Made by a program: the position numbers. This document shows positions 18,001-18,807 of a DNA stretch of 18,807 nt, in pieces (position 1 is the stretch's first letter; each line of letters opens with the position of its first letter). The DNA comes from a virus (lineage: Duplodnaviria; Heunggongvirae; Uroviricota; Caudoviricetes): the IMG/VR virus record IMGVR_UViG_2778261136_000002; one strand, written 5' to 3'.

Positions 18001-18807
18001 GAAATGGTGTTTTTCAGGTGGTGCTGGGGGCTGCAGCCATCGTGGGCTCTTTCTTCACCGCCGGTGCAACGATGGCGTTGTGGGGCGCAGCCCTGAGTGC
18101 CGGAGGGCTGACTGCCACCACGATGCTGTTCTCGCTGGGTGCCAGCATGATACTGGGTGGCGTGGCCCAGATGCTGGCCCCGAAGGCAAAGACGCCGGAT
18201 TACCGGGCGACGGATAACGGTAAACAGAACACGTATTTTTCGTCACTGGACAACATGATTGCCCAGGGCAACCCGATGCCGGTGCCTTACGGTGAAATGC
18301 TGGTTGGTTCACGACGGATATCCCAGGACATCAGCACCCGTGATGAGGGCGGTGACGGGAAAGTGGTGGTTATCGGGCGGGGATGAAAAAAAATCCCGCA
18401 GTGTTCGGCGCCTGCGGGAAGAGATACGAAGATTAACTTTAAGGAATTTTTCATTATTCTGGCAGATGAACTGTAACGCAGCGTGATTATGAGCACTACA
18501 GTCAGTGTGCGGAAATGTGAATAAACTCAGAATTTTTATTCACGGGAAGGGAGGGGCCGGATATCGGTGGCAGAGGACAGAAGGCATCATGCCGGGTTCA
18601 GGGGATAAAAAAATCCCGCAGAATCAGCGGAGCTGCGGGAGAGAACGATGAAGATTAACGTTATGGAGTTATTTTTCAGGCATCAAAAATGTAACGCAGC
18701 GTCATTATTGCGGCTACAGGCAATTGCCGGAAATGTGAAGAATTTCAGAAATTTTATTCCGTCATGACACAGGCACCCTCCGGGGTGCCTGTTGTTTTTG
18801 GGCATAA

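What the first reader, a model, noticed from the sequence alone, without database searches (positions are those of the whole stretch)
18381..18807. Tandem diverged ~165-bp repeats after tail gene I, each with a leftward intrinsic terminator, plus a rightward terminator
In lambda, J follows I directly. Here the I stop is followed by two homologous units (18381-18544 and 18601-18762). Each begins with an A-run plus a GC hairpin that is a textbook terminator only for minus-strand transcription. Indels between the copies are not multiples of three, so the repeat is probably not protein-coding. Copy 2 does contain an SD-preceded 39-codon + strand ORF (18648..18767, MKINVMELFFRHQKCNAASLLRLQAIAGNVKNFRNFIPS) with rare codons, followed by a strong rightward terminator. 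Conserved blocks and a weak possible promoter on the minus strand (-10-like CATAAT/AATAAT with a poor -35) are compatible with two tandem small leftward transcripts of about 85-150 nt. Alternatively the units are insulator terminators blocking antisense transcription from downstream moron genes, or remnants of recombination at a module junction. The window ends before the next gene, so the context is incomplete.
Basis: seen in the sequence. Interest (0 to 1): 0.65.

Follow-up and report, generated by a model that had tools for sequence, protein, structure and literature searches.

The report
Tandem PasB-family prophage sRNA genes
The gap between tail genes I and J of this E. coli prophage holds two side-by-side genes for small regulatory RNAs of a family already detected in EPEC (PasB) and EHEC (EcOnc22-24); only the tandem arrangement and the promoter module they share have not been described.

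Summary
After the stop codon of gene I (18386) lie two homologous units, 18387-18541 and 18607-18759, 78% identical, with indels of 1, 2, 1 and 4 nt. Each starts with an A-run and a GC hairpin that terminates only minus-strand transcription. A strong rightward terminator follows at 18769-18800.

The units are not a new kind of element. They are two alleles of the prophage sRNA gene known as PasB in EPEC E2348/69 (83 nt, Northern-verified, Hfq-dependent). In EHEC Sakai the same family is listed as EcOnc22/23/24 (Hfq-CRAC, Northern ~85 nt). Both sit in the same I-J gap, antisense to the tail operon. A covariance model built from 20 alleles outside this window hits the window only twice: 86.3 bits (E 1.5e-15) and 75.4 bits (E 2.3e-13).

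Predicted RNAs run 18463->18387 (77 nt) and 18681->18607 (75 nt). Every cassette I examined shares one promoter layout. A CRP-like box (TGTGA-N6-TCAGA) is centred about 60.5 bp upstream of the predicted start. It is followed by a weak -35 and a TAnnnT -10.

The 39-codon ORF is not conserved. Arrays of one to four cassettes occur in other E. coli prophages. I class the finding as a new member of a known kind, of moderate interest.

The parts
18387..18541 (-). Cassette 1: a complete PasB-family sRNA gene (terminator, body, promoter and upstream box). It is a diverged allele, at most 76% identical to any single-copy allele I sampled.
   Evidence: Alignments. The same allele is the first cassette of the four-cassette array in L103.
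18387..18463 (-). Predicted sRNA 1, 77 nt: 5'-GCCAGAAUAAUGAAAAAUUCCUUAAAGUUAAUCUUCGUAUCUCUU-hairpin-U7. The 3' end lies in the U-run 18386-18393, which abuts the stop codon of I.
   Evidence: Covariance model R1 hit at 18464-18387(-), 75.4 bits, E 2.3e-13. Fold. The +1 position follows from the conserved promoter geometry.
18394..18419 (-). Terminator hairpin of sRNA 1: stem UCCCGCAG/CUGCGGGA with a 10-nt loop.
18428..18437 (-). Conserved single-stranded core GUUAAUCUUC of sRNA 1, the candidate seed.
   Evidence: Near-invariant in 20 aligned alleles and in the 42 distinct cassettes.
18470..18475 (-). Predicted -10 hexamer TACAGT of cassette 1 (promoter Pb). The weak -35, TAGTGC, is at 18493-18498.
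   Evidence: TAnnnT sits at this fixed position in every cassette.
18486..18491 (-). It lies inside the spacer of Pb.
   Evidence: Its counterpart in E2348/69 is part of an 11/12 consensus promoter.
18516..18531 (.). CRP-like box 1, TGTGAATAAACTCAGA, centred at -60.5 from the predicted +1.
18542..18606 (.). Inter-cassette spacer, 65 nt with no ORF. It marks tandem arrays of this type.
   Evidence: 88% identical to the spacers of L008 and L010. Found in 86 of 5426 complete E. coli genomes and in no phage record.
18607..18759 (-). Cassette 2: a complete PasB-family sRNA gene, 97% identical to the allele of VT1-Sakai (Sp15, the EcOnc22 locus).
18607..18681 (-). Predicted sRNA 2, 75 nt: 5'-GCCUGAAAAAUAACUCCAUAACGUUAAUCUUCAUCGUUCUC-hairpin-U7.
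   Evidence: R1 hit at 18686-18607(-), 86.3 bits, E 1.5e-15. Fold z = -2.8.
18614..18640 (-). Terminator hairpin of sRNA 2: stem UCCCGCAG/CUGCGGGA with an 11-nt loop. The U7 tail is 18607-18613.
18650..18659 (-). Conserved core GUUAAUCUUC of sRNA 2.
18688..18693 (-). Predicted -10 hexamer TACATT of cassette 2 (Pb). The -35, TAGCCG, is at 18711-18716. The alternative Pa hexamer AATAAT is at 18704-18709.
18734..18749 (.). CRP-like box 2, TGTGAAGAATTTCAGA, centred at -60.5 from the predicted +1.
18648..18767 (+). It is not a gene; it is the complement-strand image of the sRNA body and promoter.
   Evidence: start codon absent in 23 of 49 cassettes, and variable length and frame.
18769..18800 (+). 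Rightward intrinsic terminator: a 10-bp stem, 4-nt loop and TTGTTTTT. It closes the I-J gap ahead of the J leader, is present once per gap and is not part of the repeated cassette.

Best explanation
The I-J intergenic region carries two tandem, separately transcribed genes for small Hfq-dependent regulatory RNAs of the PasB / EcOnc22-24 family. Both are on the minus strand, antisense to the tail operon.

Each cassette of about 155 bp reads, in RNA sense, as follows. It starts with a CRP-like box (TCTGA-N6-TCACA) centred about 60 bp upstream of the start. A weak -35 (TnGnnn), a 17-bp spacer, a TAnnnT -10 and a T-rich stretch of 6 nt follow. The +1 is G. The RNA has an unstructured A-rich 5' part, a conserved core (AAyUCCwUAAnGUUAAUCUUC), a short linker, an 8-bp GC hairpin and U7-8.

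The predicted products are 18463->18387 (77 nt) and 18681->18607 (75 nt).

Shown here: the homology, the anatomy and the conserved geometry. Taken from the literature on homologues: expression as an RNA of about 83-85 nt, Hfq binding and Hfq-dependent stability.

Inferred: both copies are expressed from their own promoters. Transcription is activated by cAMP-CRP in class I fashion. The RNAs act in trans by pairing their conserved core with mRNAs on Hfq. Because they are perfectly complementary to the I-J segment of the late mRNA, they could also act on it in cis.

The two copies are distinct alleles (69-78% identical). They share the core but differ in the flanking body, so their target ranges should overlap without being identical. 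The tandem arrangement most likely arose by unequal recombination between I-J gaps of different lambdoid prophages. The rightward terminator belongs to the junction with J, not to the repeat.
For: Same locus and strand as PasB. PasB is NC_011601 1466343->1466261 on the minus strand and lies between the I stop and the J start of prophage PP6. Both window units align to it along their whole length.

PasB is Northern-verified. Its level falls by log2 -6.8 and -2.4 in a delta-hfq strain, and it has 37 RIL-seq interactions.

EcOnc22, 23 and 24 of EHEC Sakai have an Hfq-CRAC signal and a Northern band of about 85 nt that is destabilised without Hfq. They lie in the I-J gaps of Sp15, Sp14 and Sp11. 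Model R1 hits each gap at 91.5 bits. The Sp15 allele is 97% identical to window unit 2.

Model R1, built only from sequences outside this window, hits the window exactly twice, both times on the minus strand: 86.3 and 75.4 bits.

Of 81 related loci whose held sequence reaches past gene I, 78 have the same terminator directly after I.

Promoter. With +1 set 7 nt after the conserved TAnnnT, the box centre is at -60.5 in 40 of 42 distinct cassettes. Working the other way, fixing +1 from the box recovers TAnnnT and TnGnnn in 17 of 17 cassettes, including those with different RNA bodies. The predicted +1 is 1 nt from the reported PasB 5' end. The offset between predicted +1 and the EcOnc22-24 cluster 5' boundaries is 138-140 nt. 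The coordinate shift between reference versions, measured on AsxR, is 136-139 nt.

The box occurs twice in the window against 0.06 expected. It occurs once per cassette in all 49 promoter-bearing cassettes.

Hfq-type features are present: U7-8 tails, and runs of three or more A-R-N triplets in 40 of 42 alleles against 4% of shuffles.

Arrays recur. The spacer is found in 86 of 5426 genomes, and L103 holds a four-cassette array whose first and last units are the two window alleles.
Against: There are no expression data for this strain or for the unit 1 allele.

Unit 1 has the weakest features. Its box deviates in the inner positions, its longest A-R-N run is only two triplets, and its fold z-score is -1.0.

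The consensus sigma-70 scan finds no promoter in the window's gap. In E2348/69 it finds the other promoter, Pa, rather than Pb.

The PasB 5' end comes from RNA-seq coverage, not from 5' mapping.

The mapping of EcOnc coordinates rests on a shift measured at 1.27 Mb and assumed to be constant out to 2.9 Mb.

The terminator stems never vary, so they offer no covariation support.

The CRP assignment rests on sequence and geometry alone. The expression contrast could equally reflect growth phase, RpoS, FNR or temperature.

No targets or seed have been demonstrated for any family member. No phage translation-initiation region in the window stands out as a target.
Confidence: 0.8

Rival explanations
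1. Only cassette 2 is a working sRNA gene. Cassette 1 is a decaying copy left by recombination between prophages.
For: Unit 1 is at most 76% identical to any sampled single-copy allele. Its box has two extra deviations, TGTGAATAAACTCAGA. Its longest A-R-N run is two triplets. Arrays with this spacer occur only in chromosomal prophages and never in sequenced phage genomes. J is a pseudogene in the closest genome.
Against: Unit 1 keeps every functional element: the TACAGT -10, a G at +1, the invariant core GUUAAUCUUC, an intact 8-bp stem and a U8 tail. In L103 the same allele has an identical body and stem, and only the terminator loop differs. That is the pattern expected under selection. The spacer, and so the array, is kept at 85-100% identity in 86 genomes.
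Confidence: 0.15
2. The RNAs act mainly in cis as antisense RNAs against the I-J segment of the late tail-operon mRNA, for example by creating an RNase III site or altering J expression. On this view they are not trans-acting riboregulators.
For: The position directly between I and J, antisense to the operon, is fixed in nearly all relatives. Complementarity to the late mRNA is perfect by construction. No trans target motif has been found for PasB.
Against: PasB was recovered in 37 Hfq-mediated chimeric interactions with core and accessory transcripts in a lysogen, where late genes are silent. The body diverges strongly between alleles while a 10-nt core stays invariant, which is the signature of a trans seed. 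Arrays place cassettes that pair only with themselves.
Confidence: 0.12
3. The units are only transcription terminators or insulators that stop leftward, antisense transcription from entering the tail genes. The rest of each unit has no function.
For: In the 846-nt class of I-J gaps, a leftward sodC-like moron lies upstream of the same terminator, which would then end or back up its transcript.
Against: In the closest genome there is no minus-strand gene downstream of this gap. About 110 nt beyond each hairpin is conserved, with a fixed promoter geometry. Homologues give discrete Hfq-bound RNAs.
Confidence: 0.05
4. The region encodes a small protein (the 39-codon ORF), or is a type I toxin-antitoxin pair.
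For: Copy 2 has a GGGAGAG-N4-ATG arrangement and an open frame.
Against: The start codon is ACG or ACA in 23 of 49 cassettes, including copy 1. Lengths range from 12 to 54 codons with frame changes, and the peptide is not hydrophobic. The apparent SD is the 3' half of the terminator stem.
Confidence: 0.02
5. The units are a dispersed intergenic repeat of the REP, ERIC or BIME type.
For: They are short, hairpin-containing and present several times per genome, with a median of 4 places.
Against: All copies I inspected lie in I-J gaps of lambdoid prophages. There is no other copy in the 18.8-kb window. They are absent from almost all of 185,579 species representatives and found only in Escherichia apart from three tiny contigs that are probably contaminants: two confirmed as cassettes by the model (L089, L096) and one, L087, that holds the box but was not detected by it. 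There is no Rfam match.
Confidence: 0.01

Closest known systems
PasB sRNA of EPEC O127:H6 E2348/69, prophage PP6 (Pearl Mizrahi et al. 2021, PMC8550237; Zhu, Shabalina & Storz 2026, bioRxiv 10.64898/2026.05.13.724894)
   Same: It occupies the same I-J gap on the same strand, antisense to the tail genes. It has the same terminator stem and U-tail, the same conserved core and the same promoter and box geometry. Both window units align to it and match a family model.
   Different: There are two copies in tandem here, against one in E2348/69. The 2026 survey reports a minimum distance of 28 kb between pasB copies and only 'a few nucleotide differences' among variants. The window alleles are far more diverged, about 70-75% over the cassette. 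They lack the near-consensus Pa promoter of E2348/69.
EcOnc22 / EcOnc23 / EcOnc24 of EHEC O157:H7 Sakai, prophages Sp15, Sp14 and Sp11 (Tree et al. 2014, PMC4104026, Table S2; listed with target unknown in Sy & Tree 2021, PMC7873438)
   Same: They are I-J gap sRNAs with an Hfq-CRAC signal and a Northern band of about 85 nt that is destabilised without Hfq. The Sp15 allele is 97% identical to window unit 2.
   Different: There is a single cassette per prophage in Sakai. Neither PasB paper I read links these RNAs to PasB. The equivalence is my inference from coordinates and the model hits.
AgvB and AsxR 'anti-sRNAs' of EHEC prophages (Rfam RF02702 and RF02703)
   Same: They are short, Hfq-binding sRNAs encoded by prophages at a conserved position. 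They have a conserved 3' part, a variable 5' part and A-R-N motifs.
   Different: They lie in the moron site downstream of PR', not in the tail operon. There is no sequence or model similarity. They act by sponging core sRNAs, which has not been shown for this family.
Tandemly duplicated sRNA paralogues: OmrA/OmrB in E. coli and PrrF1/PrrF2 in Pseudomonas
   Same: They are adjacent, same-strand sRNA genes, each with its own promoter and terminator. They share a seed but differ elsewhere (general knowledge; cited as a contrast).
   Different: Those pairs are fixed core-genome loci. Here the copy number varies from 1 to 4 between prophages, and the copies look like alleles brought together by recombination.
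The bacteriophage lambda I-J junction
   Same: Gene order is the same, L-K-I-J-lom-stf.
   Different: In lambda J follows I directly (established knowledge). In these prophages the gap is 227-935 nt and holds leftward cargo: sRNA cassettes or a sodC-like gene.

Membership tests
PasB / EcOnc22-24 prophage sRNA family | Located in the gap between tail genes I and J of a lambdoid prophage, on the strand antisense to the tail operon | tested here: met
   The window gap follows I. PasB and EcOnc22-24 lie at the same place.
PasB / EcOnc22-24 prophage sRNA family | Sequence and profile similarity to experimentally detected members | tested here: met
   Alignment A1. Model R1, built from 20 alleles outside the window, scores 86.3 bits (E 1.5e-15) and 75.4 bits (E 2.3e-13), with no other hit in the window. 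Unit 2 is 97% identical to the Sp15 allele.
PasB / EcOnc22-24 prophage sRNA family | Rho-independent terminator (stem CCCGCAG/CUGCGGG, U tail of six or more) abutting the stop codon of I | tested here: met
PasB / EcOnc22-24 prophage sRNA family | Conserved single-stranded core upstream of the terminator (GUUAAUCUUC) | tested here: met
   Both units carry it, at 18428-18437 and 18650-18659, unpaired or weakly paired in the predicted folds.
PasB / EcOnc22-24 prophage sRNA family | Own promoter giving the mapped 5' end | tested here: inconclusive
   The conserved TAnnnT and TnGnnn sit at the right distance from the reported 5' ends. However, the consensus scan finds no promoter in the window, and a second candidate, Pa, exists.
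PasB / EcOnc22-24 prophage sRNA family | Expressed as an RNA of about 80 nt whose stability depends on Hfq | not testable with these tools
   Known only for the homologues.
Class I CRP-dependent promoter | A 22-bp site with TGTGA-N6-TCACA half-sites | tested here: met
   Both boxes read TGTGA-N6-TCAGA, 9 of 10 core positions, with AAAT and ATTT flanks. There are two in the window against 0.06 expected. The boxes are invariant across cassettes while the neighbouring DNA diverges.
Class I CRP-dependent promoter | Site centred near -61.5 (or one or two helical turns further upstream), with a weak -35 | tested here: met
   The centre is at -60.5 from the predicted +1 in 40 of 42 cassettes, and the -35 is TnGnnn. 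This depends on a predicted, not a mapped, start site.
Class I CRP-dependent promoter | Transcription depends on cAMP-CRP | not testable with these tools
   There is only an indirect hint: PasB is higher where Spot 42 is lower.
REP / ERIC / BIME dispersed intergenic repeats | Many copies scattered in unrelated intergenic regions of the chromosome | tested here: not met
   Copies are confined to prophage I-J gaps and to Escherichia.
Small-protein gene / type I toxin | Start codon, frame and length conserved among homologues | tested here: not met
AgvB / AsxR anti-sRNAs and any other Rfam 15 family | Match to the family covariance model | tested here: not met
   No hit at gathering thresholds, and only chance-level hits (E above 3) in the region. 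None in related arrays.

The most novel reading that the evidence does not exclude
The I-J gap of Escherichia lambdoid prophages may be a dedicated, expandable sRNA cassette array. It holds one to four units of about 220 bp, all leftward. Each unit has the same CRP-like promoter module and its own terminator. The units carry at least three different RNA bodies: type A with GUUAAUCUUC, type B with GGUUAGUCAAC and type C with CUCCUUAAGGUGACUAUUCG. On this reading, recombination among co-resident prophages shuffles a set of co-regulated, carbon-source-responsive riboregulators with different target specificities. The window would be a two-cassette (A1 + A2) version of that array.
Probability: 0.45. 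Interest if true: 0.6.

Novelty: new member of a known kind. Interest (0 to 1): 0.4.

Why it matters
Prophage-encoded sRNAs are a main route by which Stx phages and related phages rewire the regulation of pathogenic E. coli. This family is abundant on Hfq in both EPEC and EHEC, yet no function or regulator has been assigned to it.

This work links three things that the papers I read treat separately: PasB, EcOnc22-24 and a much wider set of diverged alleles. It also gives a precise, testable promoter model with a class I CRP-type box at a fixed distance. And it shows that the genes can occur as arrays of up to four cassettes with different bodies, which the 2026 survey did not detect.

If the CRP link holds, these sRNAs would tie prophage riboregulation to carbon availability in the gut.

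For annotation, the result is practical. The roughly 230-930 bp 'empty' I-J gaps of E. coli prophages should be annotated as sRNA genes, and the small ORFs called there in some phage records are spurious.

Tried and rejected
Rfam 15 scans of the whole window at gathering thresholds, of the region at E up to 10, and of related arrays found no family.

The consensus promoter scan of the window's gap found nothing. In E2348/69 it finds only the alternative promoter, Pa.

Protein-coding reading of the 39-codon ORF: rejected.

Covariation: the sRNA terminator stems are invariant. The rightward hairpin has one compensatory pair, but that is not significant (85 of 500 shuffles reach it).

I tested whether the 65-nt spacer is a relic of the 3' end of gene I. 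There is only a vague ...RG* resemblance and no BLAST support.

Search for a cis or phage target: duplex energies of both sRNA bodies against 25 translation-initiation regions of the window, J, lom and stf are no better than for shuffled sRNAs.

Taxonomic range: the box pattern across 185,579 species representatives gave 16 hits. Real cassettes were found only in E. albertii and on two tiny contigs that are probably contaminants.

The spacer has no match in 50,697 phage records.

Literature search for a function, a regulator or another name found only the two Pas papers, Tree 2014 and one review table.

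Full report
**Observation.** The stop codon of the tail assembly gene I is at 18384-18386. 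Two homologous units follow it: 18387-18541 and 18607-18759, separated by a 65-nt spacer. The repeat finder returns an 89-nt block at 75% identity and an exact 15-mer, AAAAAAATCCCGCAG, at the start of both units. A gapped alignment gives 78% identity in ungapped columns. Its score is 144, against -33 +/- 10 for shuffles, and the indels are 1, 2, 1 and 4 nt.

The motif A5-TCCCGCAG-loop-CTGCGGG occurs twice in the window, with none expected by chance. On the minus strand it is an 8-bp GC hairpin followed by U7-8. The rightward terminator at 18769-18800 is also real. It folds at -26.1 kcal/mol, z = -4.7.

**What it is.** Rfam has no matching family. DNA searches show the unit in the I-J gap of VT1-Sakai and many Stx-converting phages, usually once per phage. 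They also find it in 752 of 5426 complete E. coli genomes. The closest genome, STEC 2014C-4135 at 99.1% identity, has the same two units. There J starts about 37 nt beyond the end of the window.

The literature search led to PasB, one of five 'pathogenicity-associated' sRNAs found by RIL-seq in EPEC E2348/69. Its published coordinates are NC_011601 1466343->1466261 on the minus strand, 83 nt. Its Northern probe is AATCCCGCAGTGATCGCGGAGCT. These place it exactly between the I stop and the J start of prophage PP6. Both window units align with that gap along their whole length. PasB is Northern-verified. Its level falls by log2 6.8 in a delta-hfq strain in one condition and by 2.4 in the other. 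It takes part in 37 Hfq-mediated interactions.

The supplementary table of Tree et al. 2014 lists EcOnc22, 23 and 24 for EHEC Sakai. They are described as mutually homologous and detected by Hfq-CRAC. The Northern band is about 85 nt and is destabilised without Hfq. In the current Sakai reference these coordinates fall in the I-J gaps of Sp15, Sp14 and Sp11. My family model hits each gap at 91.5 bits. The Sp15 allele is 97% identical to window unit 2.

The papers I read do not connect PasB with EcOnc22-24. That equivalence is my inference.

As a formal membership test I built a covariance model from 20 alleles, none of them from this window. It matches the window only at 18686-18607(-), with 86.3 bits and E 1.5e-15, and at 18464-18387(-), with 75.4 bits and E 2.3e-13.

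**Anatomy.** I collected 80 loci encoding close relatives of gene I from IMG/VR. Of the 81 related loci whose held sequence reaches past gene I, 78 have the same terminator straight after I. The I-J gaps fall into length classes of about 227-255, 331-337, 417-421, 711 and 846 nt.

Aligning 42 distinct cassettes in RNA sense shows a common plan:
- An invariant upstream block containing TCTGA-N6-TCACA.
- A divergent stretch.
- GCGTTAnnnT, which contains a second hexamer, Pb, of the form TAnnnT.
- A T-rich stretch of 6 nt and a G.
- A variable A-rich region, the conserved core AAyUCCwUAAnGUUAAUCUUC, a variable linker, and the terminator.

Pb is kept in every cassette, including those with a different RNA body and no Pa. 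Its predicted +1 is 1 nt from the coverage-based 5' end of PasB.

The EcOnc22-24 cluster 5' boundaries also fit Pb. The shift between the old and new Sakai references, measured on AsxR, is 136-139 nt. The offset between the predicted +1 and the three cluster boundaries is 138, 140 and 139 nt.

I therefore favour Pb. It gives RNAs of 77 nt (18463->18387) and 75 nt (18681->18607). Pa would give 93 and 91 nt and cannot be excluded. In E2348/69 it is an 11/12 consensus promoter.

Apart from the terminator, the RNAs are predicted to be largely unstructured. They carry A-R-N repeats in 40 of 42 alleles, against 4% of shuffles. Together with the U7 tail, this is the usual make-up of an Hfq-dependent sRNA.

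**The upstream box.** TGTGA-N6-TCAGA, with AAAT and ATTT flanks, matches the CRP consensus AAATGTGA-N6-TCACATTT at 9 of 10 core positions. It occurs twice in the window against 0.06 expected. It occurs once per cassette in all 49 promoter-bearing cassettes. Its centre lies 60.5 bp upstream of the predicted +1 in 40 of 42 distinct cassettes.

Fixing +1 from the box alone recovers TAnnnT at -12 to -7 and TnGnnn at -35 in 17 of 17 cassettes from arrays. That geometry, with a weak -35, is that of a class I CRP-dependent promoter such as lac P1, where the site is centred at -61.5 (established knowledge).

The published expression pattern is compatible. PasB is higher in the 'non-activating' condition. 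[quoted passage not shown] This step is inferred from sequence and geometry. I put it at about 50%.

**Tandem arrangement.** The two window units are different alleles. Unit 2 is 97% identical to the Sp15 allele. Unit 1 is at most 76% identical to any single-copy allele I sampled and 69% identical to unit 2 over the whole cassette. This is not a recent duplication in place.

The spacer is 88% identical to the spacers in L008 and L010. It occurs in 86 of 5426 complete E. coli genomes, mostly STEC, and in none of 50,697 phage records.

E. coli 07-4299 has a 935-nt I-J gap with four cassettes at a period of about 220-230 bp. The first and last are the two window alleles. The middle two have different bodies: type B with GGUUAGUCAAC, and type C with CUCCUUAAGGUGACUAUUCG and a different terminator. 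Other loci hold two or three cassettes.

The 2026 survey of Pas sRNAs reports a minimum distance of 28 kb between pasB copies and argues against tandem duplication for Pas genes. Its BLAST criteria apparently missed these diverged neighbours.

The most economical origin is unequal recombination between the I-J gaps of co-resident lambdoid prophages.

**Plus strand.** The 39-codon ORF of unit 2 is not conserved. The start codon is ACG or ACA in 23 of 49 cassettes, including unit 1, and lengths range from 12 to 54 codons. Its apparent Shine-Dalgarno sequence is the 3' arm of the terminator stem.

The rightward hairpin is present once per gap, after the last cassette. It pairs in 98% of cells. 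Its single compensatory pair is not statistically significant. Its role in the middle of an antiterminated late operon is unexplained. Blocking Q-independent transcription from running into J, lom and stf in the lysogen is a reasonable guess.

**Mechanism and rivals.** The best-supported view is two independently transcribed, Hfq-dependent, trans-acting sRNAs. They share a core but have different flanks, and they are probably switched on by cAMP-CRP.

A purely cis-antisense role on the late mRNA is possible. It does not explain the RIL-seq interactions seen in a lysogen, or the seed-like conservation pattern.

A terminator-only or insulator role fits only the sodC-bearing class of gaps.

Unit 1 could be a dead copy. 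However, it keeps every element, and in another array only its terminator loop differs.

The dispersed-repeat and small-protein readings are refuted. No phage translation-initiation region stands out as a target. No target or seed has been demonstrated for any member of the family.

**Verdict.** What is new is of moderate weight:
- Two diverged alleles in tandem.
- Arrays of up to four cassettes.
- The likely identity of PasB with EcOnc22-24.
- A conserved promoter module with a CRP-like box.

I class it as a new member of a known kind, with interest 0.4.

Noticed in passing
L012 2187-3032 (also the L021, L031 and L048 families): An 846-nt class of I-J gap carries a minus-strand Cu,Zn superoxide dismutase (sodC-like) moron. 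It replaces the sRNA promoter and box but leaves the PasB-like body and terminator downstream of it. There the sRNA part could be a 3'-UTR product, or simply the terminator of sodC.
   Followed up: partly
L103 1343-2277 (E. coli 07-4299, NZ_CP027462): A four-cassette array sits in one I-J gap. Two of its cassettes have RNA bodies unlike PasB (type B GGUUAGUCAAC and type C CUCCUUAAGGUGACUAUUCG) but the same promoter and box geometry. None is in Rfam.
   Followed up: partly
L022 2187-2523 and the related 331-337-nt gaps (L069, L078 and others): Here the PasB cassette is followed by a different right-hand module with a perfect hairpin, AAAACCCCGGTATC-TGCT-GATACCGGGGTTTC, flanked by an A-run and a T-run. 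It looks like a bidirectional terminator and stands in place of the usual rightward terminator.
   Followed up: no
L001 6432-6447; L103 2226-2262; L018: The J leader contains a 7-nt repeat of variable copy number (TCAGACA): 2 copies in L001, about 4 in L018 and about 5 in L103, just upstream of the J ribosome-binding site.
   Followed up: no
L001 6464-10157 (NZ_CP027310): In the genome closest to the window, J is annotated as a pseudogene, with a frameshift right after the GTG start, and lom is also frameshifted. This prophage may be defective.
   Followed up: no
L096 (Streptomyces flavalbus, 3.4-kb contig) and L089 (Parendozoicomonas haliclonae, 460-bp contig): Full-scoring PasB cassettes (86-89 bits) sit on tiny contigs of unrelated species' assemblies. 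They are most likely contamination with E. coli or prophage DNA.
   Followed up: partly
window 18486-18491 and 18704-18709 (minus strand); L003 1566-1593: A second, often near-consensus, -10 hexamer (Pa) is conserved inside the spacer of the promoter that fits the mapped 5' ends. Whether there are two start sites is unresolved.
   Followed up: partly
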